Of a DNA stretch of 64,000 bases, positions 4,231-60,433 are shown piece by piece. A model generated the notes under the pieces. The model had not been told where the DNA came from. It saw only the letters and a program-made list of their open reading frames with translations, and ran no database searches. How positions within the stretch are numbered: position 1 is the stretch's first letter; each line of letters opens with the position of its first letter. This DNA is from Candidatus Amarolinea dominans (GTDB lineage: Bacteria > Chloroflexota > Anaerolineae > SSC4 > Amarolineaceae). The position numbers and the translations under genes were made by a program. Location: the NCBI GenBank assembly GCA_016719785.1, contig JADJYJ010000010.1, forward strand, positions 1 to 64,000, given 5' to 3'.

Positions 4231-7200
4231 TTAGGGTCGCCCGGCGCTCGCCACCGACGCCGGCCACCAGGACGGCGTCGGAATGGCCCCGCGGCCCGCC
4301 AGCCCGCTGTGGTTGATGGTCACCAGGCGGTCGCCCTGCGAGGCGCCGACGTTGTACGGCGTCGCATTCGGGTCCGGGCCTTGCCCCACTTCAACCCACC
4401 ACATGTAGACTTCGCCTGACGGCCAGCCGGCGGGAATGCCCGTCAGGTTGACGCAAGCCACGTTGCCCAGGAAGGCCGTCGTGGCGGTTTCGCCGGTCAG
4501 CCAGTTGTAGAGCGCCAGCCGGTAGGTGTCGGTGGCTACGCCGCGCGGGGTCCAGCAGAACTGCGCCGGCAGCGTGATCTCGGCCCCATCCTCTGGCGAG
4601 ACCAGTGCGACATCGGCCACGTCGAAGTCTCCGCCCCAGGCCGTCGCGCCTGCGGTGTAGGCGGCCAGCCGGTTGCCCCACCAGCTCCACAGATACCCCT
4701 CGCCAGGGTTGGGGTCGTCGGGGGTGTTCAGATAGCGCACCGCGTAGAACTCGTCCGCGGTCAGCGCCGGCGCGCCGACGAAGAGATAATTGCCGTTTGC
4801 GGCCGTTATCGTCGCGGCCTGTGTGCTCCAATCATCGCCGTTCCAGCGCCGGAGGTCCAGCCGTAAACCGCCCGCGGCCGCGCCGTGCGAGGTGACCCGA
4901 CCGTAGATGCCATTGGCAGACGCTGTGGCTGTGGGGGTAGCGGTGGGCGTGCGCGTACGCGTGGCGGTCGGTGTGTTGGTCGGCGTGCCCGCGGACGCGG
5001 TGGGCGTGCGCGTGGGCGTGACGGTCGGCGTGCGGGTGCGCGTGGCGGTCGGTGTGCTGGTCGGCGTGCCTGCGGACGCGGTGGGCGTGGCGGTCGGTGT
5101 GCCTGCGGACGCGGTGGGCGTGCGCGTCGGGGTACGCGTCGCGGTCGGTGTGCGCGTGGGCGTGCTGGAAGCGGCGGCGGTCGGCGTGACGGTCGCGGTG
5201 GCCGCGCCAGAACGGCAGCCGAAGTCCTGCGCCCAGTAATGTTTGTAAGTGCTTGCTGCGTTGTAGCCGTAGCCGACGCCAATCTCGCAGACCAGGGGAT
5301 TGAGGAGATTGGCGCGATGGGGCGGGCTGTTCAGCCAGGCATTCACCACTGCTTCGGCTGAGTCCTGCCCCCAGGCGATATTCTCAGCAATCGTGTAGTG
5401 CGGCGAGTAACCGAAGCCGACCAATCTCGTGGTCATGTCACGGCCCAGGCGATCAATGTGGTTGGCGCTGATGTAGTTATACGCCGCCATGTCCCCGGCG
5501 AACCAGGCGGACGCATTGCCCAGGTTGGTCTGTGTTTGCAGCGGCGGCAGGCCGTTTTGGCTGCGCGCGGCGTTACTCAGCTCGATGACCCGGCGCACAA
5601 AATCGTTGCTGGTCGTGGTTGGCGTGGCCGTGGGAGTGCGCGTGGGCGTTGGCGTGGGGCCGCCCCCGCCCGCACGCCGCAACAGCGGCAGATACAGGCG
5701 TGGCGACTGCATCCGGAACCGGGCCGCCTGGAAGCTGGTCTGCTGGTCGAAGCTCACGCGGACGCCGAAGGTGTACTCGCCTTCCGGCGAGGTGGGCAGT
5801 CGCCCTTCCAGTGTCAGCGTGTTGGCGCCGGGCGCCAGCGTGCGCGTGCCGCTCTCGGAGAGCGCCGGGATCGCCTGGCGCGCGCATCCACCAGGATCAG
5901 GCTGTAGGTCGCGGTCACATCCTGCCCCACGCGGCCGGCGCTGCTGGCGGTATTGCTGATCACCGCGCGCAGACGGATGGACGCGCCGGGCGTCAGTGCA
6001 ACCGCTGGATTGCCCGCGCCGTCCGTCACCTCGACCGCGGCCATCTGCACAGGCGAGCAGGCGCGCGGGGTCAGGCCGATGTCCAGGTCCGTCACCGGCG
6101 GCGGTACGGTCACGGTGCGGCTCTGCGCGTCGGCGAAGCAGGGCTTGGCGGCCAGCACGTAGAAGCTGCCCGCTGACGTCTGCCAGCCGTAGCGACCGTC
6201 GCTGTTCGTGGCCTGCGGGTTGAGCTGCCCGGAAAGGGCCGGGTTCCAGATCGCGTCGCCCGTGACCGGGTCGCGCTGGTAGAGCGTCACCACCGCGCCT
6301 GGCAAGGGGGCGCTCGTGCTGGCATCGAAGACCTTGCCGGCCGGATCAATGCAGGCCAGCCGGCCGCTCAGCACAGTCTCGGTCATGGTGACGCCATCGG
6401 ACCAGACGACCCGCTTGGTCACGACGACGCCCAGGGCCGTGTTGGGGATGCTCGCCGCGCCGCGGTAGAGTCCGCCGCCGGAAAAATTGGACACACGGGT
6501 CATGACGCCCAGCAGGTTGCCCTGGCTGTCCACCAGGGTGACGCTGCTCGGCGGGTCGCCGTAGATCGGCTCCTCGACTGTGATGCTTGCGTGTGGTACA
6601 CATGAGACCACGAAGGGATAGTTGGCTGAAGTCACCCCGCGCCAGGTGTAGGGGCCGTAGGTGACGGTGGCCGCGCCCAGCCCGCGGCTGACATCCGACC
6701 GCACGGTGAATCCCTGGGCGAGTACGCCTGCCCGGCCGTTGGGATTGGTCACGGTTACATCGCGCGCCTGGCGCCAGGCCCGCGACCAGCGTTCCGCGCA
6801 CGCGCGCGCGGAAGGGCGGCGCTGTCTCGTCGGGCAAGTGCTGAAGGCCCTGCACGATGCTCGACCCCACCGCCGCCTGCAAGCCGGGCTGGAAGAAGTA
6901 GCCCAGGATGGTGACTTCGACGTTGATGCCCGCGCTGGCTGACGCCGGTTCGATGGCATCTACGATCGGGGTCGCGCCGTCGAAACAGCGCGAGAACTCC
7001 GAGGTGTTGCCGTTGGGGTCCGTGGCGGTGGCCGTCATCTGGTCACCGGCCGGCACCGCATTGACGAAGGTGGCCGAGAACGCGGCATTGCCCGAGGCGT
7101 TGGTGGTGGCCGTAGTTGCGCCCAGGAACGTCCCACCCTCGCCGTAACCCGAAGGATCGCAGGTGGGGCTGGCGAAGAATTCCAGCCGATAGCTCTGCGA

Positions 7201-23415: not shown

Positions 23416-24246
23416 ATGGAGATCACGATTCGCCGTCTTTCGACGTTCGAGGAGTATATCGCGGCCGAGGAGCTGCAGCAGGTCTGCTGGCAGACCGACC
23501 CGATCGACGCGGTGCCGGCCCATCTGCTCTTGACCATTCAGAACGAGGCCGGGCTGGTACTGGGCGCATTCACGCCGCAGGGCGAATTGATCGGTTTTGT
23601 CTTCGGTTTCCTGGGCCGTGAAGGCGATGTGCTCAAGCACTGCTCGCACATGGCCGCGGTCCATCCGTATTATCGCGATCATAACCTGGGCTACCGCCTG
23701 AAACTGGCTCAGCGCAGCTTGATGCTGGAACAGGGGTTGGAGATCTGCACGTGGACCTACGATCCGTTGGAGGCGCGCAACGCGGTGCTCAACATCGCTA
23801 AGTTAGGGGCCACGGCGCGCATCTACAAGCGTAACATCTACGGCCAGCGCCTGGGCGGTCTCAATGCGGCCTTGCCGACGGACCGCTTTCATGTGCGCTG
23901 GGAAGTAAGCAGCGATCGCGCGCTGCACTGTGTGAGTACGGGCCAGCGCGTGATGGCGCCGGTCGCCGGCCAGCCCGAGCAGATGCTGACGCGGGTCATC
24001 ATGCAAGGCGACCTGCCGTTCCTGGCCGCCACCGGGCCGCTTCCTGCCGACGACATCATCGGCGTGCAAATTCCGTCCAGTTTCCAGCGCGTCAAGCGGG
24101 AGAATGTCGAGGCTGCCAGCCACTGGCGCCTGGGCACCCGCGCCCTCTTCGAAAACGCCTTCCGCGCCGGCTACACCGCCGTCAACGTCACCGCCGATGC
24201 CGAGCATCCAGAATCGCTGGCGGTGTATACGTTGGTGAGGGGGTAG
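23416..24246 (+). CDS. GNAT-family N-acetyltransferase (COG3375-like)
   Basis: Acetyl-CoA-binding-like core HCSHMAAVHPYYRDHNLGYRLK. Confidence 0.65.
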   Translation: MEITIRRLSTFEEYIAAEELQQVCWQTDPIDAVPAHLLLTIQNEAGLVLGAFTPQGELIGFVFGFLGREGDVLKHCSHMAAVHPYYRDHNLGYRLKLAQRSLMLEQGLEICTWTYDPLEARNAVLNIAKLGATARIYKRNIYGQRLGGLNAALPTDRFHVRWEVSSDRALHCVSTGQRVMAPVAGQPEQMLTRVIMQGDLPFLAATGPLPADDIIGVQIPSSFQRVKRENVEAASHWRLGTRALFENAFRAGYTAVNVTADAEHPESLAVYTLVRG

Positions 24247-24480
24247 TGCAAAGTGCAAAGTACAAAGTACATAGTGCAAAGTGCAGACGACGTTCCGCCC
24301 TGTTGTCAATGATGAATGCTGAATTCTGAATAGTGCATAGGACGTTCAGCATTCAGCTCTGAGCATTCAGCATTCAGCTCTGAGCATTCAGCATTCAGCT
24401 CTGAGCATTCAGCATTCAGCTCTGAGCATTCAGCATTCCACATTCAGCGTTTTGCACTTCGCACTTTGCACTTTGCACTT
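24247..24480. repeat. Compound repeat between convergent genes: 5x GCAAAGT heptamers, 4x 21-bp unit (gagcattcagcattcagctct), then the inverted heptamer array
   Basis: Read directly: gtgcaaagtgcaaagtacaaagtacatagtgcaaagtgca ... (gagcattcagcattcagctct)x4 ... gttttgcacttcgcactttgcactttgcactt. Confidence 0.85.
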
Positions 24481-24483
24481 CCC

Positions 24484-27335: not shown

Positions 27336-27390
27336 GAGAGACTGAGAGACTGAGAGATTGAGAGATTGAGAGATTGAGAGATTGAGATCG
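27336..27390. repeat. 8-bp tandem repeat (gagagact/gagagatt, about 7 copies) in the 5' leader of the GH gene
   Basis: gagagactgagagactgagagattgagagattgagagattgagagattgagatcg, 15-70 nt upstream of the start codon. Confidence 0.85.
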
Positions 27391-27476: not shown

Positions 27477-30428
27477 TCACTTGGGCATGCGGGCCAGGGC
27501 ATCGTAGGCTGGCCGCCCGGCGATGCCGAACTGCGCCAGCTCCGTGCCCGGGTTGGTGATGCCAAAATTGATATTCCAGAGGAACATGGGGCCAACCCAA
27601 CCCCAGCCACGCGCCATTTGGTAGGCTTGCACCAGCCAGGCGGCCTGCTCTTCGGGGGTGTTGTCGTTGGCATAGCCGTAGTTGTTGTTGAAGGCCGGGC
27701 CGATCGCCCAGCCAAACTCGGTGGGCCAGATGCGCTTGCCGCCGTCGCCGTTGGCGATCATCACGTTGCGGTAGCCTTCCATGGTGCCGCGGAAGCACCA
27801 GGAATGATGATGGTTGTCGAACGGGCCGCGGAAGGAGGCGCTCGGGTCTTGCACCGTGCGCCAGTCGCCGTCAGCCGGGCAGTTGTAGCCGCTGGGGTGT
27901 GCACCGATGGCGTCGGCGTAATTCTTCATGCCGGCGCGGTACATCGCCTGCAGGTATTCGATGTCATCAATGGCCTTGCCGCCGCCGCCGCCCGTGGGCG
28001 TTGGCGCGCCGCTGACCACGATCATGCCCGGACACGCTCCCTTGATGGCGCGGTAGGCCAGTTTCAACATCTCCACATAGCGGCCGGCGTCGAGCGGCTC
28101 GTTGCCCCACTCGTAGTGCAGATTTTGCTCGTTCCACACCTCGATGGCCTGCACGCGGCCGCAGTAGCGCCCCGCGTACGCGCCCACGAAATCGGCGTAG
28201 TCCTGCAAGTTCTGCGGCGGGCCTTCATCCGAATAGCCGTAGGCCGGGTTGCGCGACCAGTTGGGCGCCTTGACGATGCTGGCCAGGATCTTCATGCCGC
28301 CGCCCGCCAGGGTGTTGACGATGTCGTCCATACCGCCCCAACCGTAGTCGCCCTTGCCGCCGCCTTCGAAGTCCTTCCAGGGCGCCTGGAACTTGACCCA
28401 GTCGAAGCCCATGTTGCGGGTGGCGTTGACCACATAACCCAGGTCGGCGCCGCCGTAGACCTGCGCCTGCACGCCGTAGCCAAACCCGGCGCCGCCACTA
28501 GGGCGCGGCGCGGGCGGGTTGTTGGCCGCCGGCGGCGCCGCGGGCGCAGGCGGCCGGGTGGGCGCGGGCGTTGCGGTCGGGGCCGGCGTGGGGGTCGCGG
28601 TCGGTTCCGGCGTGTCGGTTGCCACCGGGGTGTAGGTGGCGACCAGCAGCGCGACTTCACCGGCCGGGCTGACGGGGCGACCGTTTTCCACAATGACTGC
28701 ATTGATCTGATACTGCGCGCCTGGGCTATCCGGCGCCTTGAACGCGTAGACGCTGTTTTCGCTCAGCGGTTGGCTGGAAACATCGGTCACCTGTCCATCA
28801 GCGCCCTTGACGGTCCAACTGATGCCGAATTCGCTCTGCTGCGCCGATGGCGCGCCCTGCTGGAAGGTGGTCAGCATGCGCCACAGTTCCGGATCGGTTG
28901 CAGGCAGATAGTCCAGGGTAGCGCCTTGCAGGTGATACTGATTGACCAGCGCAAACTTGTGGCTCAGGCTGGCGGCATTTTCCAGCCAGACCGTCCGCTC
29001 ATAGCCCTGATCGTCGCGATAGCGATAGGTGTAGGCGCCGATGGCGTCATCGAAAGTCAACTGGCTGGTGGCGCGCTCGGCAATGACCTTGAGATCAATC
29101 TGTTCGCCCGGCGCGGCCACGCCTTTGGTGGCCTGCACCTGGCCGACCAGCGGCTGCAGGGCTTCATCGTAAGCCTTGAGCAGATAGTAGTTGCCCGAAC
29201 GCTCGATGCTGCGGCCGGGCAGCACGATCTGAATCTTGCTGCGGTTGACTTCGCCCACGGCCCATTTGAGCAGGGTGTGCATCTGGCCGTCTGGCGCATA
29301 GGCCTGCGGATTGCTGATGGCCGGGATGCGGAAGGTGTCCACCACCGCGCCCAGCTCACGCCAGAGGTACGGCCCGGTTTCCCAGCGATCCGCCGCCACC
29401 TGGCGCGGCTCCTCCACCCGCACAGAGACCTTCTTGTCCTGGGCGTGCAGCCTTGCGGCCAGTTTGGTCACAAAGGCGACATAGTCCCCCGCCAGTTCGG
29501 CGTTGATCCCGCGGTAGTCCAGGTCAATGCCCTTGTACAGGTTGCTCACCAGCAACTGCTCGATGGCGCTGATCTGCTTTTCCTGCTGCTCCGCGCTGAC
29601 CAGCAAGTTGGCGATCAAATCGGTGCGGATGGAGCCGTCATCGCCAAAGTTACGCAGGGTGGGGACCACCGCAAAGGAACTGGCTGCGTCGGCGGGCAGG
29701 CCCTGTATGCTGCCCTCGATGCCACCGTCACCGGCCAGGCGCAGGCCCACCGGGTTGACCTCCACCAGCGCGCCCTTGCCGGCGTCTGGCAGCGGATTGT
29801 CCGCGGTGACCAGTGCGGCGGCAACCGGCGGCTGCGCGGTGGTCTGCATCACCATGAAGGCCGCGGGGACGGCCGTCAGCTTCGACTCGATCGCGTCATC
29901 CTGCGGCACAATCTGGCTGGGGATGTAAGACCAGGCAGCAGCCTTCGGGTCGTAACCGTAGAGGTCGAGCGTTTCATAAGGTTCGGAGTCGTTGGGGATC
30001 GGTACGTGAATGACAGCCTGGGGCGGCTTGGCGCCGCGCACGCTGGTCTGATAAAGCGGACTGCGCGGGTTGACCGTGTTTGGCAGTTGCTCGGCCGCTT
30101 TGCGCAGTTCCGCACCACCCTCACCGGCCATGAAGGGCTGGCGCGAGATGCTGGTCAGGCGTATCTGCGTCGTGCCTTGCGTCATGGCCTCGGCAGGCAC
30201 CGTGACCGAGGTGCCATCGGAGTCAACCACCGAGCCACCCTGCTCGCCCACGCGGGTGAAGCCTCGGGTCTGGGTGCGCTCGATGAGAGAAACAGGGGGG
30301 AGAATCAGGCTGAAAATGACCAGCCCGGCAATAGCGAGATTCAACAACCAGCTTCCGTTGCGGCTGTTGAACCACCGGGTCAGGTTTGGATAGAGGTCAG
30401 ACGAGTTCGCGGTTTGCTGCATTGACAA
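27477..30428 (-). CDS. Membrane-anchored multidomain glycoside hydrolase: N-terminal TM, GH18-like domain lacking the catalytic Glu, PT linker, C-terminal GH-A (GH5-like) domain
   Basis: TM WLLNLAIAGLVIFSLILPP. The GH18-like motif reads KGIDLDYRG in place of DGxDxDWE. The C-terminal domain is about 60% identical to the neighbour gene (VWNEQNLHYEWG, PTEFGWA). Confidence 0.75.
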   Translation of the reverse strand: MSMQQTANSSDLYPNLTRWFNSRNGSWLLNLAIAGLVIFSLILPPVSLIERTQTRGFTRVGEQGGSVVDSDGTSVTVPAEAMTQGTTQIRLTSISRQPFMAGEGGAELRKAAEQLPNTVNPRSPLYQTSVRGAKPPQAVIHVPIPNDSEPYETLDLYGYDPKAAAWSYIPSQIVPQDDAIESKLTAVPAAFMVMQTTAQPPVAAALVTADNPLPDAGKGALVEVNPVGLRLAGDGGIEGSIQGLPADAASSFAVVPTLRNFGDDGSIRTDLIANLLVSAEQQEKQISAIEQLLVSNLYKGIDLDYRGINAELAGDYVAFVTKLAARLHAQDKKVSVRVEEPRQVAADRWETGPYLWRELGAVVDTFRIPAISNPQAYAPDGQMHTLLKWAVGEVNRSKIQIVLPGRSIERSGNYYLLKAYDEALQPLVGQVQATKGVAAPGEQIDLKVIAERATSQLTFDDAIGAYTYRYRDDQGYERTVWLENAASLSHKFALVNQYHLQGATLDYLPATDPELWRMLTTFQQGAPSAQQSEFGISWTVKGADGQVTDVSSQPLSENSVYAFKAPDSPGAQYQINAVIVENGRPVSPAGEVALLVATYTPVATDTPEPTATPTPAPTATPAPTRPPAPAAPPAANNPPAPRPSGGAGFGYGVQAQVYGGADLGYVVNATRNMGFDWVKFQAPWKDFEGGGKGDYGWGGMDDIVNTLAGGGMKILASIVKAPNWSRNPAYGYSDEGPPQNLQDYADFVGAYAGRYCGRVQAIEVWNEQNLHYEWGNEPLDAGRYVEMLKLAYRAIKGACPGMIVVSGAPTPTGGGGGKAIDDIEYLQAMYRAGMKNYADAIGAHPSGYNCPADGDWRTVQDPSASFRGPFDNHHHSWCFRGTMEGYRNVMIANGDGGKRIWPTEFGWAIGPAFNNNYGYANDNTPEEQAAWLVQAYQMARGWGWVGPMFLWNINFGITNPGTELAQFGIAGRPAYDALARMPK

Positions 30429-30800
30429 AACGCCACTCCTTTCGTAAATTTGTAGTCAGATATGAAAAATGCCTCATACCAGTGCGTGTGCCAACACCCC
30501 GGCGCACTCCATAGGGTACGACGCGGCCGGCGTGACGAACAGCGGTCTCTGGTCGAGGCGCTCATCAGACGAAGGACGATGACTGCCCGTCCACGTTTGA
30601 ATAGGTTCGGCGCACAGCCCTCTCGGCAGAGCAACACAGGGAACTGGGCGCCTACTTGTACGTCTCACATCGGCGTACTCCAACATGGTTGACATTCTAG
30701 CATAGCGATTGGGATTTGGCAAAGTGACAGACGAATGTGACGGCGCCGCCCCAATTCCAGATTTCGCTCGTTTTGCAGTATACTTGGGATCCGGCAGCCA

Positions 30801-30899
30801 CCGATGGAAATCTGATGGAAATCCGATGGAAATCCGATGGAAATCCGATGGAAATCCGATGGAAATCCGATGGAAATCCGATGGAAATCGGCGGAAACC
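30801..30899. repeat. 11-bp tandem repeat CCGATGGAAAT x8 (plus a degenerate 9th) in the divergent intergenic region
   Basis: ccgatggaaatctgatggaaat(ccgatggaaat)x6cggcggaaacc. Confidence 0.9.
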
Positions 30900-31023
30900 T
30901 GCTGAAGCAGATTCGAAACGCCGCCCGCCGCAACCCGCTTCAGCGGGTTTCCAGTCGGATTCATCCGATGCCGGGGGGCAGGTTGAGCAGTAGGTACGCT
31001 TTTTGAGATGATACCGCTACAGG

Positions 31024-32334
31024 ATGTTGTGCATGCCGCGTAAATTCGATTGGACGTTTATCGGCCTGGGTGTGGGCCTGGTTTTCTTGCTTGGCCTGGG
31101 CTTGATCTCGCTCTATGCTTATTTCAGCCTTGATACGACGCCCGCCAACGCACCGGACCTGACCTGGGAGGAACCGTGGCGCGCGGTGGATGGCGCGTTC
31201 GTGCCGCCAGACCTGGGACTGCTGCCCCTGGCCGGCGATGCGGTGGATGACGCCGTGCGCCGGGCGCTGGCGGCTAATGAACTCGATGCTGGCTACGCCC
31301 TGGTGGTGCAGTCGCCTGAACTGACCGATGCTCAGCGCGCCGGCCATCTCCTGCTCCTGAGCAGGTCTTTCATGACCAGCCAGCAGCCCGCCAAGTCAGC
31401 GCTCTGCTTGCGCCTGACCCAGGAGGTGATTGCGCTCAGCCCCGCGCTGCCCGACATCGCACGCGCGGAGACCGCCCTGCAGGTCGCGGAGGGCTGGCGC
31501 AAATTGCAGCAACCGAGCCTGGCACGGGTTAGCCTGGATTTGGCCGAAACCCTCGCCATCAGCAGCACCTACCTGCTCGACCCGCAGCGTGTGGACATCC
31601 TGACGCGTCTGGCTGCCGCGTACATTAAAATGGAAGACCAGCCGCAGGCGCAGGCGCTGCGCCAACTGGCGAGCAAACTACCCCCGCGCAGCGCCCCGCC
31701 CCAGCGTCCGCCTGACCTGGCGCTTGACCGCTGGCGCGCGCCGCTGGCGATTTCCGAGACCCTGACCGCCACCATCGAGGCGCGGCGCGCGACCGTGGAT
31801 GGCCTCATCAACGGGCTGCTGGCGGGCCGTCAACTGACCGATGCGGATGTCATCCGCCTGGAGCCGCAGTTGGTGGCAGAAGACGAGCAGCGCACGGCGT
31901 TCTATCGGCAGATCGCAAGCGATGCCGCGCAGATGCCGGAAACCCAGGCCGCGGCGCAATTGGCACTGACCAACTGGCTGACCTTCAAGTGGCGGGTGGC
32001 GCGGCTGGATCTGCAGGTCAGCCTGGCGCCCGCCTGGGAGGCGCAGCGGGATGAGATCGAGGCGCAACTGGTGGAGGCCAACGCCAACCTGTTTGCCCTC
32101 TACCGCGACCTGGCCAGCGCGCTGCCCGACAGCGATACCGTCAGCCGGGCGCGGTTGGAGGTGCTGCGCGCCGAAATTTTGCGCGGGCGCCTGGGGCTGT
32201 ATCCCGATTATCCATTGGATGAGCTGGTCGCGCGACTGAATGAGGCACAGGCGGGATTGGAGCCAGGCCTCGGCCCGCACGTCGCCCTGCGCAAGGTGGA
32301 TGAACACCTGATCTTCACACTGGCAACCCGGTAG
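31024..32334 (+). CDS. Hypothetical membrane-anchored helical protein
   Basis: N-terminal TM (FIGLGVGLVFLLGLGLISLYAYF) and a long Ala/Leu/Arg-rich helical body. No recognisable motifs. Confidence 0.5.
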   Translation: MLCMPRKFDWTFIGLGVGLVFLLGLGLISLYAYFSLDTTPANAPDLTWEEPWRAVDGAFVPPDLGLLPLAGDAVDDAVRRALAANELDAGYALVVQSPELTDAQRAGHLLLLSRSFMTSQQPAKSALCLRLTQEVIALSPALPDIARAETALQVAEGWRKLQQPSLARVSLDLAETLAISSTYLLDPQRVDILTRLAAAYIKMEDQPQAQALRQLASKLPPRSAPPQRPPDLALDRWRAPLAISETLTATIEARRATVDGLINGLLAGRQLTDADVIRLEPQLVAEDEQRTAFYRQIASDAAQMPETQAAAQLALTNWLTFKWRVARLDLQVSLAPAWEAQRDEIEAQLVEANANLFALYRDLASALPDSDTVSRARLEVLRAEILRGRLGLYPDYPLDELVARLNEAQAGLEPGLGPHVALRKVDEHLIFTLATR

Positions 32335-32345
32335 GACCCAAGAGA

Positions 32346-33215
32346 ATGCCACATACATTGTACATTGTGGGCACGCCGCTGGGCAACGCGGCCGATTGGT
32401 CGCTGCGAGCGCAGCAGGTGCTGGCGGCAACGCCGGTCATTGCGGCCGAGGACACGCGCGTCACCGCGCGGCTGCTGGCCCACTGCGGCATCAGCGGGCC
32501 GCGGCTGCTCACCTACACCGACGCCTTTGCGCCCAAGAAGGCGCAGCGCCAGGCCGAAGTGCTGGCGGCCCTGCAGGCAGGCGATGTCGCGCTGGTGTCG
32601 GACGCCGGGATGCCGGGCATTGCCGATCCCGGTTCCGAACTGGTGCAGGCGGCCATCGCGGCCGGGCATCGGATCGTGCCGGTGCCCGGTCCCTCGGCGG
32701 TGGTAACTGCCCTGGCGGCGTCGGGTTTACCCGGCGAACGTTTCCTCTTCCTGGGCTTCCTGCCCCGTCAGCGCGCTGAGCGGCAGCAACTGCTGCGTCA
32801 GGCCGCGGATGAGCCGGGCGCGCTGGTCTGCTTCGAGGCGCCGCATCGCCTGCTGGACTGCCTGCAAGACCTGGTTGCGGTGTTGGGCGACCGCCGCGTG
32901 ACCCTGGCGCGTGAATTGACCAAGGAGCATGAGGAGATCTGGCACGGTCGCTTGGGCGAGGCGCTGGCACGGTCGCAAACCCAGGCCCCGCGTGGGGAAT
33001 ATGTGATCGTCATCGAAGGCGCGCCGCCCGCGCCGGCCGCGGAGAGCGGCGCCTGGCCGGTTGGTCAGGTGCGCGAGGCGCTCGCCATCCTGGCGCAGGA
33101 AGGGATTGACACCCAGATGGCGCCGCGGCTGGTCGCGCGGCTGGCCGGCTGGCGCAAAAAGGACGTCTACCGCCTGCTGGTGGCAGACAGGGATGCCGCT
33201 GACCCCGAGGGGTGA
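32346..33215 (+). CDS. rsmI: 16S rRNA (cytidine1402-2'-O)-methyltransferase
   Basis: MPHTLYIVGTPLGNAADWSLRA, with AAEDTRVT, VSDAGMPGIADPG and FLGFLP motifs of the RsmI tetrapyrrole-methylase fold. Confidence 0.85.
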   Translation: MPHTLYIVGTPLGNAADWSLRAQQVLAATPVIAAEDTRVTARLLAHCGISGPRLLTYTDAFAPKKAQRQAEVLAALQAGDVALVSDAGMPGIADPGSELVQAAIAAGHRIVPVPGPSAVVTALAASGLPGERFLFLGFLPRQRAERQQLLRQAADEPGALVCFEAPHRLLDCLQDLVAVLGDRRVTLARELTKEHEEIWHGRLGEALARSQTQAPRGEYVIVIEGAPPAPAAESGAWPVGQVREALAILAQEGIDTQMAPRLVARLAGWRKKDVYRLLVADRDAADPEG

Positions 33216-40100: not shown

Positions 40101-43100
40101 GCTTACGCACCTCCGTCAGCCGGCCAAACGTATCGTACGTATAGAGCGTGACCGCCTCGTTGGCGTCGGTCTCGCTCTGTATTTGTCCCACCAACCCGCT
40201 GCCCCCGCCGTCGCATTCATGCCGTAGCGCGATGGTCGTCGTCAGCGTCGCGCCGCCCAACTGACAGGCCTGCACCGTTACGCTCATCGCATAGGCATGA
40301 AACGTGCTGTCGAAGGCCGTCGTGACCACGCTGCCATTGGCCGCCGTCTCGCTCCAACGGTTGCCCCATTGGTCATAGCCGTAAGCCGTCGACCGCATCC
40401 AGTTCGCGTCACACCCCGTGCCGCCCTGTCCCGCCTGCCACACCTCTCTCACCTGCCCAGCCGTCGGCGCCTGGTTGTACGCCGCATAGCCGCTGTAGTT
40501 GTCGTAGATGGTGCGCGTCTGCCCCTGGCATGTCCCGCTTTCGCTCCCCGCGAACAGCTTCTCCTCCGCCACCCGATTGACGATGTAGGTCGTGCCGTCA
40601 TTGCGTGGGGAATAGACCCGCTTGATCGTTCGGTATGGTATCGTTGGCGCGGCCTCGCTGTATAGCCGGGTCAACAGCAGATTGCCATACGCCGCATCGT
40701 AGGTGTTGACGCTTTTGGTGTAACGCAGCGGCGGGTCCGTGCCGTTGGGGTCCACAACGTATTCGGTCTTGTCTTGCAGATAGACGAAGTGCATCCCGCC
40801 CGGCGTCCCCACGCTGGTCTCGTTCCAGGTCTGCAGCGAACGCGCCAGCAAGTTGTTGGTGACGCCCAAACCCGCACGCGTCTCTGTCTTGGACAGCTTG
40901 CCTTTCCAGCGGTGCTGATTGGTCGTGGTGTGGAACCACTGCTTCAGCCGCGTGTCCGGCTGACCGCTGCCGATCAAGGCGCCGCTCCCTACCAGCGTCA
41001 TTTCCGCTTCGGCAAAGCCCCCCGCCTCGTTGTCCCAGGTCGTCGTGTACCAGTAGCTCGTCACGATGTCCGGATCGCTCCCGCCCCCACGCCGCCGCTC
41101 CTGCTGCACCACCATTCCGCCGCTCGAACCGCCGTACGTAACCTCCACCCGTCCCTGGTAGCCGTTGTTCACCGTCACCATGTGCCCATCCGTCGTGCCG
41201 CTCCCGTAGGTGTAGCTGGTTGGCGGCAGCGCATTGCTGCCGGTCCCATAGTGCGTGATCGTACTCAAGTACAGCCGGCTCTGCGACGGCGCCGCCGGGT
41301 TGATGAACGCCGTCATGCCCAACACCAGTTTGTGCAGCAGCGTATTGTTGGCCATCACCTCCACCCGCTGCAGGTACTTTCGTGTCCAGAAAACCTGGTA
41401 GCCGGTCTCGTCGAAGTGCTGAGCCCGGTCCTCCCGGTTCAGATAGAATAGCTTCAGCTTGAAGGCGCCGTTTGGCCCATAGCTGATCTCCTTCACCCGC
41501 ACCGCACGCACCTGGATGCGCGCATCGGCCGTGTAGTCGCGGTTCCAACAGTCTGCCGGCACATTCACCGCCAACAACGAACCCTCATAGTCATAGCTGA
41601 ACGTCAGACGATTAGGCGTCGTTGGCGTGGTGTCGCGCACCTCGGTCAACACCCACTTGGTGAAGCGATGCACCACCCGCAGTTCCGAAGGCGTCCAGTC
41701 TCCATTGCTGCAATCGCGCACATACAGCGCCGGCTCGAAGTGATAGGTAATGCCGCCCTCGGTCGTCACCTCCCACACCAGGTTGTCCCGGTTGTACAGC
41801 GCCGGCGTCTGGGGCAGATCAATCGTCTTGAAGGGCGTCGGCGTACTGGGGTCAAAACTTCCATCGACTGGATAGTCAGGGTTGGAAGCGGTGGGCCGGC
41901 GAATCTTCAGGAAGGGGTCCTGCACGCTGTAGAAAATCTCGCCGTGTTTCTCCAATTCATGGGTCACGCCGTTCAGGGTCAGGTGTACTTTCCCATGCCG
42001 TCTGGAGTCAAATCGTGCAGGATGTAGCTCAACCCACCGATGTCCCAGCCCCACCCGGCCAGTTGATGATGACCGGCGCCGGCCAGGCTGCGGCTGCTAT
42101 AGTCCAGGCTTAGCCCAGGCGCCAGTCCGCCCGGCCCCGGCGGCGCTGCGATCGGGTAGCTCACGGTCCAGGCCCCGTTGTACAACTGCGACTGCACCCC
42201 TTCGATCCCCGGCGCAGGCTCTGGCACAATGGCGTTGCCTTGCGCAAACAGCGTCAAATGGGTCAGGGTGGTGATCAGCCGCCTTTGCTCCTGATCCATG
42301 CTCGTTGGCAAGACCACCCAACGCCCGTCGGCCGCATCCTGGAAGAACAGCGAAGCGCCCGGTGGCCAGGGCGTTTGCTCATCGCCAGCCGCCGGATCGC
42401 GATAGCGCAGCGTCAACCCCACCGCAAACTGTGTCACCGGCAGTCCCGACATCTCCGTGGCGCTCAACTCGAACAGGAAATCAAGGTTCGCCGGCTGATC
42501 GGGATCGCTCTCGTGCGGGTGTAGCGCACCAGGGTCGGTGCGCTGACCGTACCAGCCGGAATCGTGAGCACCACCCGCCCATCGCTGCTCTGCAACCGGC
42601 TCTCCTGATCAGGCATCACCCACACCTCATCCGGCCCCGGCCCCGGCGTCCAGGTGGCGTCGGCGTCGGCGTACACCCCTCATCATCCTGGCAGGGGTGA
42701 CGGTGCAGCCGTCGGCGTTGGCGTCGCCGTCGGCGTCCAGGTGGCGGTCGGCGTTGGCGTCACTCCTCATCCTCGGTGGCGTGGCCGTCGGCGTCGGTGT
42801 ACACTCCTCATCCTGGCAGGGCGGCGGCTCGGCCGTCGGCGTGGCGGTCGGCGGTTCGGCCGTGGGCGTCGGCGCGCAGTCCTCGCCCAGGCAGGGCGCC
42901 GCGGTGATCGTGATCGCAGCGCTGGCCGTCACCCCTGCGCCCACCTCCTCGCTCACGATGGCCGCGGTGTTGGTGATGACCTGCCCGCTGACCGCACCCA
43001 GCGCCTGCGCCTGGAACGTGCCGGTCAGCGTCGCGCCCGCGGCCAGTTGGCCGATGACCCACTCCAGCCGGCGCTCGGCCTCCAGGTAGCTGAAATCCCC

Positions 43101-60354: not shown

Positions 60355-60382
60355 GATCTCGCTACGCCTCGGTCTCTTTATT

Positions 60383-60433
60383 GCCTTCATTGGCCTTCAT
60401 TGACCTTCATTGGCCTTCATCGCCTTCATTGCC
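60383..60433. repeat. 9-bp tandem repeat (CCTTCATTG x about 5.5) spanning the livG stop / livF start junction
   Basis: ttgccttcattggccttcattgaccttcattggccttcatcgccttcattgccc. On the coding strand this is CAATGAAGG, giving an ATG plus GAAGG in each unit. Confidence 0.85.

What the first reader, a model, noticed from the sequence alone, without database searches (positions are those of the whole stretch)
30801..30899. Eight perfect copies of an 11-bp repeat (CCGATGGAAAT) in a divergent promoter region
The period of 11 bp is about one helical turn, so every copy presents the same face of the DNA. This matches iteron-like arrays or stacked binding sites for a regulator acting on one or both flanking divergent genes (GH at 30428 and hypothetical at 31024). 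An array this regular is also prone to copy-number change, which would act as a tunable promoter spacer. It is not a CRISPR array, because there are no spacers.
Basis: seen in the sequence. Interest (0 to 1): 0.55.

Follow-up and report, generated by a model that had tools for sequence, protein, structure and literature searches.

The report
Strain-variable 11-bp repeat in gene leader
This is a real, young tandem repeat whose copy number runs from 1 to 12 among strains of one wastewater filament species (Candidatus Amarolinea dominans); it most likely lies in the transcribed leader of a gene rather than serving as a regulator-binding array, so it is a useful strain marker but an ordinary kind of element.

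Summary
The array is real (window 30801-30888), but it is not eight perfect copies. It has 7 x CCGATGGAAAT, one CTGATGGAAAT (unit 2), and a degenerate ninth unit (30889-30899).

The host is a Chloroflexota filament, Ca. Amarolinea dominans. Fifteen conspecific assemblies with complete arrays have flanks at least 99% identical. They carry 1, 4, 5, 7, 8, 9, 10 or 12 units, in 10 distinct allele structures. This is a true VNTR that changes in 11-bp steps, and apparently also in 22-bp steps.

Seven sister species (61-87% protein identity) keep the gene order and a strongly conserved divergent-promoter block, but none has the array.

The block ends at an invariant TTGyAGTATAsT (-10-like TATACT, 30779-30784), 17 bp before the array. 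The array therefore most likely sits at about +10 to +108 of the leader of a TPR-like membrane protein-rsmI operon. It is at least 79 bp upstream of the -35 of the GH18-like gene's promoter.

Nothing supports an iteron or operator role. RNA modelling predicts no effect of copy number on ribosome-site access.

Best reading: a slippage-driven hypervariable repeat with at most a graded effect on expression. It is a new member of a known kind, of modest interest.

The parts
30801..30888 (+). VNTR proper: 8 head-to-tail 11-bp units (7 x CCGATGGAAAT, plus unit 2 = CTGATGGAAAT at 30812-30822)
   Evidence: copy number 1-12 in conspecific assemblies
30889..30899 (+). Degenerate ninth unit CGGCGGAAACC at the 3' boundary. 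A second haplotype, CGGCGGCTGAAATGGCGGAAACC, occurs in other strains. GGAAACC is also the start of the left arm of the downstream hairpin.
30773..30784 (+). TTGCAGTATACT: -10-like TATACT (30779-30784) of the plus-strand operon. It is nearly invariant (TTGyAGTATAsT) in 8 species down to 61% protein identity. Conservation stops 1-3 bp after it. The homologous site in L035 belongs to a 10/12 sigma-70 match (TTGGCA-17-TATAGT).
30752..30758 (+). CAATTCC: invariant in the seven Amarolinea-clade sequences and absent in the 61% relative. It overlaps a poor -35 (TTCCAG 30755-30760, 18-bp spacer). It may be an activator or operator site.
   Evidence: inference for function
30694..30722 (-). Promoter-like site of the GH18-like gene: TTGCCA-17-(TG)TAGAAT, 10/12. 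The -35 hexamer is invariant in 8 species. The -10 varies at one position (TAGAAT or TTAGAA-type A/G in L003 and L035).
30785..31010 (+). About 226-bp species-specific segment (array plus hairpins) with no alignable homologue in sister species, which have 41-78 bp here. No other copy exists in the window.
30893..30952 (+). Strong hairpin directly after the array: arms 30893-30913 and 30932-30952, 86% complementary, with no U-run after it
30955..30968 (+). Small hairpin TCGGATTCATCCGA. It contains a solitary partial unit, ATCCGATG (30963-30970).
   Evidence: (read from sequence)
31021..31035 (+). Conserved Shine-Dalgarno AGGA (31021-31024) and start codon ATG 31033
31033..32334 (+). 433-aa lineage-restricted protein with an N-terminal membrane helix and a TPR-like all-alpha solenoid. 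It has no Pfam or NCBIfam family.
32346..33215 (+). rsmI (16S rRNA C1402 2'-O-methyltransferase), 11 nt after the 433-aa gene and probably in the same operon
27477..30422 (-). Divergent GH18-like 981-aa gene, with a leader of about 265 nt (30423-30687) that is conserved and non-coding

Best explanation
This is an evolutionarily young, hypermutable tandem repeat (VNTR). I do not think it is a dedicated protein-binding array.

Origin (inferred): the unit CCGATGGAAAT expanded by replication slippage from a single copy that already lay among degenerate look-alikes (CCGATGGAAAT-CGGCGGCTGAAAT-GGCGGAAACC). This happened inside the 5' leader region of the operon 'TPR-like membrane protein + rsmI' of Ca. 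Amarolinea dominans. The array now gains and loses units in 11-bp steps, and apparently also in 22-bp steps.

Position (inferred from conservation): the array starts 17 bp after the conserved -10 hexamer TATACT. It is therefore most likely transcribed as about +10 to +108 of a leader of about 240 nt. It lies about 114-212 bp upstream of the inferred start of the divergent GH18 transcript.

Behaviour in RNA (modelled): the array is predicted to pair with itself into an autonomous imperfect rod that grows with each unit. It carries one AUG per unit, in all three frames. Predicted access to the ribosome site of the main gene does not change with copy number.

Consequence (inferred): at most a graded, modest effect on leader length, stability or translation. 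It is not an on/off switch and not regulator stacking.

Shown: the array, its polymorphism, its absence in sister species, and the conserved promoter block. Inferred: the transcription start, slippage as the mechanism, and the weakness of any effect.
For: Polymorphism: complete alleles of 1, 4, 4, 5, 7, 8, 8, 8, 9 (x5), 10 and 12 units occur in 15 assemblies including the window. They form 10 distinct structures, marked by C->T variant units ('.t......', '.t.t.....', '.t.t.t......') and by two 3' boundary haplotypes. Flanks are 99.0-99.8% identical over 2-5 kb, and most gapped positions in those alignments fall at the array.

Youth and dispensability: no array exists in L001-L005, L039 or L035 (61-87% protein identity), although gene order is the same. 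There is a single-unit allele, L022.

Position: TTGyAGTATAsT is nearly invariant in 8 species. Conservation ends just after it and resumes at the SD and ATG. The homologous hexamer in L035 is part of a 10/12 sigma-70 match. Sister species have only 41-78 bp of unalignable sequence between the hexamer and the SD/ATG region, which leaves little room for another promoter.

RNA modelling: the array folds on itself (-32.4 kcal/mol, z = -2.3). Mean unpaired probability of the SD-AUG region stays at 0.37-0.39 for 4-14 units.

Control: an imperfect 10-bp array in the same window is identical in 10 conspecific contigs, including assemblies that differ at the 11-bp array.

Context: four intergenic regions of this 64-kb window carry short tandem arrays.
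Against: No transcript data exist, so the start site is inferred only from conservation. The -35 in this species is poor (TTCCAG, 18-bp spacer), and the scan tool did not call a plus-strand promoter there.

Most alleles come from short-read metagenome assemblies, which can miscount repeats. Arrays of 110-132 bp approach read length.

Such high allele diversity could also reflect selection for variability, as in a contingency locus. My data cannot separate neutral from selected variation.

Thermodynamic folding says nothing about effects through RNA decay, upstream AUGs or DNA curvature.
Confidence: 0.6

Rival explanations
1. Adaptive contingency or 'rheostat' locus. Unit number sets a heritable, graded expression level of the downstream membrane-protein/rsmI operon, or of the divergent GH18-like gene. 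The 7-bp repeats upstream of Haemophilus hmw1A/hmw2A and the AGAT repeats in the Moraxella uspA2 5' UTR work this way. Variability itself would be selected.
For: There are 10 allele structures in 15 assemblies against near-identical flanks. The array lies between a conserved promoter and the RBS. Units are pure, which keeps the slippage rate high. In the precedents, more 7-bp repeats give less hmwA mRNA (PMC2424069), and 6-23 AGAT copies in the uspA2 5' UTR give an optimum at 18 (Attia and Hansen 2006, as summarised in PMC4679880). The predicted DNA bend of about 90 degrees grows with copy number.
Against: The downstream genes are a TPR-like membrane-anchored protein and the housekeeping rsmI, not typical contingency targets. 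Predicted RBS accessibility is flat with copy number. Because AUGs occur in all three frames, adding or removing units should change the upstream reading frames only modestly (the variant unit introduces one early stop). The 1-unit allele and the array-less sister species show that the array is dispensable. No expression data exist.
Confidence: 0.25
2. Stacked binding sites for a DNA-binding regulator or an iteron-like array. One protein would bind per unit on one face of the helix and control one or both divergent promoters.
For: The period of 11 bp is close to one helical turn. There is weak similarity between the unit and a conserved promoter element: CAGATTTCGCTCG (30758-30770) is 85% complementary to CGATGGAAATCTG.
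Against: The array is absent in all sister species whose regulatory block is otherwise conserved. Copy number runs from 1 to 12 within the species. There are only 3 one-mismatch hits elsewhere in 64 kb against about 1 expected, and none is in a promoter context that I could identify. No rep, partition or regulator gene is adjacent. Units are contiguous and only 11 bp long, unlike iterons of 17-22 bp.
Confidence: 0.06
3. RNA-level titration element. The transcribed array supplies 8 AUGGA (ANGGA-type) motifs followed by a GC-rich hairpin, like CsrB/RsmY. It would sequester a CsrA-like protein or ribosomes, with capacity set by unit number.
For: There is a full-length but sub-threshold match to Rfam RsmY at 30826-30952 on the plus strand: 17.2 bits, E 0.03-0.08, gathering score 57. 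Each unit has GGA about 7 nt upstream of an AUG.
Against: The score is far below the family threshold, and such hits are mostly chance. No U-run follows the hairpin. The MFE model buries the motifs in a self-paired rod. The element is absent from sister species. Whether the genome encodes CsrA was not tested.
Confidence: 0.04
4. Assembly artefact. The apparent copy-number differences, or the array itself, would come from mis-assembly of short reads.
For: Logan unitigs break inside or at the array (L011-L015). Most alleles come from short-read MAGs.
Against: The array is present in the 64-kb window and in contigs of 34 kb and 126 kb (L021 and L023). The same allele recurs in independent assemblies (9-unit '.t.t.....' four times, 4-unit twice). 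Alleles differ in internal marker units and in the boundary haplotype, which simple collapse would not create.
Confidence: 0.03

Closest known systems
7-bp tandem repeats upstream of Haemophilus influenzae hmw1A/hmw2A (graded 'rheostat' repeats)
   Same: Both are pure short tandem units in the upstream region of a gene. Copy number differs widely between strains (9-28 there, 1-12 here) and changes by whole units (PMC2424069).
   Different: There, repeat number is experimentally linked to mRNA level and the gene encodes a surface adhesin. Here no expression data exist, the unit is 11 bp, the host is an environmental Chloroflexota filament, and the downstream genes are a TPR-like membrane protein and rsmI.
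AGAT repeats in the 5' untranslated region of Moraxella catarrhalis uspA2
   Same: Both are strain-variable tandem repeats located, by inference here, inside the transcribed leader rather than between -35 and -10 (PMC4679880 citing Attia and Hansen 2006).
   Different: That repeat is a 4-bp unit with a demonstrated optimum of 18 copies for expression. Here the leader location is inferred from conservation of the -10, and modelling predicts no change in RBS access.
Abundant intergenic short direct repeats of filamentous bacteria (TAACTGA heptamers of Beggiatoaceae and cyanobacteria; cyanobacterial STRR, the latter from my own knowledge)
   Same: The same window carries several intergenic arrays of 7-, 8-, 10-, 11- and 21-bp units, some abutting ribosome sites. 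Relatives have shorter intergenic regions without the repeats, as described for Bacteroidetes cases in PMC4679880.
   Different: Those families reuse one heptamer at hundreds of loci. The 11-bp unit here occurs at a single locus in the window. Genome-wide distribution could not be tested.
MLVA/MIRU-type VNTR markers (from my own knowledge)
   Same: It is an intergenic tandem repeat with many alleles in one species and conserved flanks, so it is usable for strain typing.
   Different: MIRU units are 40-100 bp. This unit is 11 bp and perfectly homogenised.
Plasmid and phage iterons
   Same: Both consist of directly repeated units with roughly helical phasing.
   Different: There is no replication initiator gene and no origin context. 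Units are 11 bp and contiguous. The array is not conserved between relatives, and copy number ranges from 1 to 12.
CsrB/RsmY-type GGA-repeat sponge RNAs
   Same: Repeated AUGGA motifs are followed by a GC-rich hairpin, and there is a weak full-length Rfam RsmY alignment.
   Different: The score is 17.2 bits against a gathering score of 57. There is no U-run terminator. The element is not conserved and sits in an mRNA leader. The presence of CsrA is unknown.

Membership tests
VNTR / simple-sequence repeat generated by slipped-strand mispairing | Head-to-tail, near-identical short units | tested here: met
   8.1 copies, period 11, 97% matches, score 171; read directly
VNTR / simple-sequence repeat generated by slipped-strand mispairing | Copy number differs between conspecific genomes while the flanks stay the same | tested here: met
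   1-12 units in 15 complete alleles; flanks 99.0-99.8% identical
VNTR / simple-sequence repeat generated by slipped-strand mispairing | Length changes occur in whole units | tested here: met
   Distances from TATACT to ATG differ by multiples of 11 bp. The marker-unit patterns suggest that 22-bp steps also occur. The only other length difference is a 12-bp insertion at the 3' boundary that defines the second haplotype.
Contingency / phase-variable expression locus | The repeat lies inside the promoter, leader or reading frame of the controlled gene | tested here: inconclusive
   The array lies 17 bp downstream of a conserved -10-like hexamer and 133 bp upstream of the SD. No transcript map is available.
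Contingency / phase-variable expression locus | Copy number changes the expression of the gene | not testable with these tools
   Only a thermodynamic proxy was available. Unpaired probability of the RBS is flat at 0.37-0.39 for 4-14 units.
Iterons | Located in a replication origin next to a cognate initiator gene | tested here: not met
   The neighbours are a GH18-like gene, a TPR-like membrane protein, rsmI and an SH3-domain protein. The context is chromosomal and syntenic in 8 species.
Iterons | Array conserved among related replicons | tested here: not met
   Absent in all seven sister species
Operator array of a transcription factor | Sites conserved in orthologous promoters | tested here: not met
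   The conserved block ends before the array, and the array segment has no homologue in sister species.
Operator array of a transcription factor | The same motif occurs upstream of other genes (a regulon) | tested here: inconclusive
   Only 64 kb could be searched. There are 3 one-mismatch hits outside the array against about 1 expected.
CsrB/RsmY family (Rfam RF00195, clan CL00106) | Reaches the Rfam gathering score | tested here: not met
   17.2 bits against 57; no hit at all in gathering mode
CsrB/RsmY family (Rfam RF00195, clan CL00106) | The genome encodes the partner protein CsrA/RsmA | not tested
   Only the window and short loci were available. Literature searches gave nothing usable.
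CRISPR array | Repeats separated by unique spacers of similar length | tested here: not met
   Units are contiguous with no spacers.
Dispersed heptamer repeat families (STRR / TAACTGA type) | The same unit is reused as tandem sets at many intergenic loci of the genome | tested here: inconclusive
   The unit occurs at one locus only in the window. The whole genome is not available. Other arrays in the window use different units.

The most novel reading that the evidence does not exclude
The array is a heritable, copy-number-tunable RNA element. Transcribed from the conserved TATACT promoter, its 1-12 AUGGA-containing units plus the terminal hairpin (30893-30952) would act as a titration platform for a CsrA-like RNA-binding protein or for initiating ribosomes. 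Slippage would then set a strain-specific dose of a post-transcriptional regulator in an environmental Chloroflexota filament.
Probability: 0.04. Interest if true: 0.7.

Novelty: new member of a known kind. Interest (0 to 1): 0.3.

Why it matters
Ca. Amarolinea is a main cause of filamentous bulking in wastewater plants, and its strains are hard to tell apart. A single locus with at least 10 alleles on flanks that are at least 99% identical is a ready-made marker. It could be used to track strains and population turnover in metagenomes and long reads.

Biologically, it documents fast repeat turnover in the leader of an operon in an uncultured Chloroflexota, in a genome stretch that is unusually rich in intergenic short tandem arrays. 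If copy number were shown to affect expression, contingency-type regulation would extend from host-associated pathogens to a free-living filament. As it stands, nothing requires that.

Tried and rejected
- **Known RNA families and tRNAs:** Rfam in gathering mode on the whole window and ARAGORN both found nothing. Rfam in E-value mode gave only sub-threshold hits: RsmY at 17.2 bits, plus miRNA models that simply match the hairpin.
- **Coding potential:** All six frames are open through the array, and ORFs of 78-99 aa cross it. I rejected them as genes. Alleles differ by 11 bp (a frameshift), sister species lack the segment, and the plus-strand ORFs start upstream of the conserved -10.
- **Mobile element (MITE) idea for the 226-bp species-specific segment:** No second copy exists in the window, and I saw no terminal inverted repeats. 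The start of the segment (CCGGCAGCC) is still homologous to the sister-species leaders. This could not be tested genome-wide.
- **Copy number gating the ribosome site through RNA structure:** Modelled for 0-14 units, with a flat result.
- **Special intrinsic DNA curvature:** The array ranks in the top 0.06% of the window, but 26% of permuted-unit arrays are as curved. The wedge parameters were recalled from Bolshoy 1991 from memory.
- **Search for the same repeat elsewhere:** A 22-mer scan of metagenomes found one further allele of this locus (L019, 10 units) and three unrelated contigs with similar arrays (L016-L018). I have no base rate, so I draw no inference from them.
- **Structured RNA in the GH18 leader:** alifold found only 2 covarying pairs.
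- **Failed exact-protein look-ups:** the 436-aa start, the 468-aa GH5-like gene and the 276-aa gene. As a result, strain variation of the heptamer/21-mer arrays at 24245-24481 could not be measured.
- **Literature:** No paper describes this repeat, or STRR-like repeats in Chloroflexota.
- **Function of the 433-aa protein:** The AlphaFold model is confident (pLDDT 87), but Foldseek against the PDB gives only generic TPR-like matches (best E = 0.03).

Full report
**1. The observation**

The sequence at 30801-30899 reads ccgatggaaat ctgatggaaat (ccgatggaaat)x6 cggcggaaacc. Tandem Repeats Finder reports 30801-30889, period 11, 8.1 copies, 97% matches, score 171. A search for CCGATGGAAAT with up to one mismatch gives 11 hits in the window against 1.06 expected, and none of 100 shuffles reaches 11. 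Eight of those hits are contiguous at 30801-30888.

The array is therefore real and far beyond chance. It is seven perfect units plus one C->T variant (unit 2), followed by a degenerate ninth unit, not eight perfect copies.

The array lies in a 610-bp intergenic region between two divergent genes:
- A GH18-like gene on the minus strand (27477-30422; Pfam Glyco_hydro_18 just at threshold).
- A hypothetical gene on the plus strand.

The true start of the plus-strand gene is ATG 31033, preceded by AGGA. Sister species align only from that codon. The exact 433-aa product is on record, whereas the 436-aa one is not.

**2. Organism and neighbours**

Relatives of the 433-aa protein are found only in Anaerolineae/Chloroflexota MAGs, including Ca. 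Amarolinea aalborgensis. The 90% cluster that holds the window's protein is named Ca. Amarolinea dominans by UniRef and NCBI.

The protein family is tiny, with 13 clusters in 5.8 billion sequences. It matches no Pfam or NCBIfam model. A confident AlphaFold model (pLDDT 87) shows an N-terminal membrane helix and a TPR-like helical solenoid, with only generic TPR-like matches in the PDB.

Eleven nucleotides downstream lies rsmI (TIGR00096, 235 bits). The window has no tRNA and no Rfam family at gathering score.

**3. Comparison with sister species**

Seven other species keep the arrangement GH18-like (minus) / 433-aa gene (plus) / rsmI:

| Locus | Protein identity to window |
|---|---|
| L001 | 87% |
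| L003 | 81% |
| L002 | 80% |
| L005 | 78% |
| L004 | 77% |
| L039 | 74% |
| L035 | 61% |

In the alignments (A1; A4), everything from the GH18 start codon up to TTGCAGTATACT (30773-30784) is strongly conserved. Conservation then stops within 1-3 bp and resumes only at the SD and ATG.

None of the seven species has the array. By BLAST, window 30785-31010 (226 bp) has no counterpart in L001 or L002, which carry 78 and 41 bp there. The segment has no second copy in the window. The array is therefore a recent, species-specific addition.

**4. Position relative to the promoters**

*Minus strand.* The scan finds TTGCCA-17-TAGAAT with an upstream TG (30722..30694, 10/12). The same site is found in L002 and L035. 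Its -35 hexamer is invariant across the eight species, and its -10 differs at one position in two of them. That puts the GH18 transcript start near 30687. It leaves a leader of about 265 nt that is conserved and non-coding, since it carries 2-nt indels.

*Plus strand.* The motif TTGyAGTATAsT is nearly invariant in all eight species. In the most distant one, it is the -10 of a 10/12 sigma-70 match, TTGGCA-17-TATAGT. Sister species have little sequence between this hexamer and the SD/ATG region, so there is little room for another promoter.

I therefore infer that TATACT (30779-30784) is the -10 of the plus-strand operon and that the start site is near 30791. The array would then occupy about +10 to +108 of a leader of about 240 nt.

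This is an inference. The -35 in this species is poor (TTCCAG, 18-bp spacer), the tool did not call the site in the window, and there are no transcript data. On either reading, the array is not between -35 and -10 of any promoter. It is at least 79 bp upstream of the GH18 -35.

**5. Copy-number variation**

Exact-protein look-ups and one metagenome scan retrieved the same locus from many assemblies. Flanks are 99.0-99.8% identical to the window over 2-5 kb, and most gapped positions in those alignments fall at the array.

Complete arrays found, where '.' is a CCGATGGAAAT unit and 't' is a CTGATGGAAAT unit:

| Units | Locus or loci | Structure / note |
|---|---|---|
| 1 | L022 | single unit |
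| 4 | L025, L027 | .... |
| 5 | L010 | ..... |
| 7 | L006 | .t.t... |
| 8 | window, L020 | .t...... |
| 8 | L021 (34-kb contig) | all C units |
| 9 | L007, L008, L009, L024 | .t.t..... |
| 9 | L023 (126-kb contig) | .t......., other boundary haplotype |
| 10 | L019 | .......... |
| 12 | L026 | .t.t.t...... |

That is 10 allele structures in 15 genomes. The pattern of variant units suggests that two-unit (22-bp) duplications occur at the 5' end, alongside single-unit changes.

Two 3' boundary haplotypes exist: CGGCGGAAACC and CGGCGGCTGAAATGGCGGAAACC. The second was seen independently in NCBI, ENA and Logan data.

The one-unit allele reads CCGATGGAAAT-CGGCGGCTGAAAT-GGCGGAAACC. This looks like the ancestral state: one unit among degenerate look-alikes.

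Logan unitigs break at the array (L011-L015), as expected for a repeat longer than k.

Recurrence of identical alleles, internal markers and presence on long contigs all argue against an assembly artefact. Read-level confirmation is still missing.

As a control, an imperfect 10-bp array at 60376-60431 is identical in ten conspecific contigs. Three of those come from assemblies that differ at the 11-bp array.

**6. What the array might do**

*DNA level.* A wedge model (parameters recalled from Bolshoy et al. 1991) predicts a bend of about 90 degrees over 121 bp. That ranks in the top 0.06% of 121-bp segments in the window. However, 26% of arrays made from permuted units are as curved. This is a property of any 11-bp period, not of this unit.

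*RNA level.* Several results bear on this:
- The array folds on itself into an imperfect rod (-32.4 kcal/mol, z = -2.3).
- A strong hairpin follows at 30893-30952.
- Modelling leaders with 0-14 units leaves the unpaired probability of the SD-AUG region at 0.37-0.39 from 4 units upward. No structural gating of translation is predicted.
- Each unit carries an AUG with GGA about 7 nt upstream. The resulting upstream frames end at 30815, 30905, 30993 or 31006, all before the main start. Because all three frames are populated, adding a unit should change this picture only modestly.

*Rfam.* In E-value mode, Rfam gives a full-length but weak RsmY alignment: 17.2 bits against a gathering score of 57, E = 0.03-0.08. 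It is driven by the AUGGA motifs and the terminal hairpin. I treat this as a lead only.

**7. Genomic habit**

The same 64 kb holds other intergenic short tandem arrays:
- Heptamers and a perfect 21-mer at 24245-24481, whose outer arrays are inverted complements.
- An 8-mer at 27336-27387 abutting a ribosome site. It is shared in position with sister species L001 and identical in L019.
- The 10-mer at 60376-60431.

Each uses a different unit. The 11-bp unit is confined to its one locus in the window. This fits a lineage prone to generating such arrays. Similar abundance of intergenic short repeats has been described in other filamentous bacteria (PMC4679880).

**8. Verdict**

The iteron or operator reading fails the conservation tests, and the 'promoter spacer' reading does not fit the position.

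The best-supported account is a young, slippage-driven VNTR in the probable 5' leader of the TPR-like-protein/rsmI operon, with at most a graded effect on expression (confidence 0.6).

The main rival is an adaptive rheostat, like the hmwA 7-bp repeats (PMC2424069) or the uspA2 AGAT repeats, at about 0.25.

It is a new member of a known kind. Its practical value is as a strain marker for a bulking filament. Interest: 0.3.

Noticed in passing
window 24245-24481: A complex block of short tandem arrays lies between two convergent genes: (AGTGCAA)x~6, a perfect 21-mer (TTCAGCATTCAGCTCTGAGCA)x4.5 and (TTTGCAC)x4. The outer heptamer arrays are inverted complements of each other (31-37-nt arms, 81-91%), so the block could fold into a very long hairpin. 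A short-read contig (L041) ends inside it.
   Followed up: partly
window 27336-27387: An 8-bp array (GAGAGACT x2, GAGAGATT x4.5) lies directly upstream of the SD and ATG (27321, minus strand) of an SH3-domain gene. Sister species L001 has a GAGACTGA array at the same place (at its contig end). The array is identical in conspecific contig L019.
   Followed up: partly
window 60376-60431: An imperfect 10-bp array (CAATGAAGGC on the minus strand, about 5 units) lies between two ABC-transporter ATPase genes. Its first units encode the C-terminus of the upstream protein. It is invariant in 10 conspecific contigs and was used as a stability control.
   Followed up: yes
window 30423-30687 (minus strand): The GH18-like gene has a non-coding leader of about 265 nt that is highly conserved across six species. 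It sits behind a conserved TTGCCA-17-TG-TAGAAT promoter and contains 2-nt indels, with a conserved GAGGCAUUUUU about 45 nt before the start codon. There is no Rfam match, and alifold found only 2 covarying pairs. It is a candidate cis-regulatory RNA of unknown class.
   Followed up: partly
L016 (JGI24669J20092_10024600), L017 (OMKS01013195.1), L018 (Ga0315281_10122646): Unrelated metagenome contigs carry 11-bp arrays with nearly the same unit: L016 in an AT-rich organism with more than 25 units of AGTCCGATGGA variants, L017 with 3.5 units in a divergent intergenic region near a cold-shock gene, and L018 with TCCGATGGAAA/TCCGATGTAA units. I cannot tell whether this is convergence or chance without a base rate for 11-bp arrays.
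   Followed up: no
window 28561-28614 (inside the GH18-like gene): This is a 78% G+C, 24-bp-period repeat in coding sequence (a Gly/Ala/Pro-type linker). All short-read contigs of the locus (L006-L010) break there.
   Followed up: no
window 30758-30770 versus the array units: CAGATTTCGCTCG lies between the CAATTCC element and the TATACT hexamer and is only partly conserved across species. It is 85% complementary to the unit junction CGATGGAAATCTG. The similarity is short and may be chance, but it is the only link between the array and the conserved block.
   Followed up: no
window 4940-5195 and 42708-42874: These are long G+C-rich degenerate repeats (periods 12-81 and 6-40) inside large ORFs, probably repetitive low-complexity protein regions. 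They were not examined.
   Followed up: no
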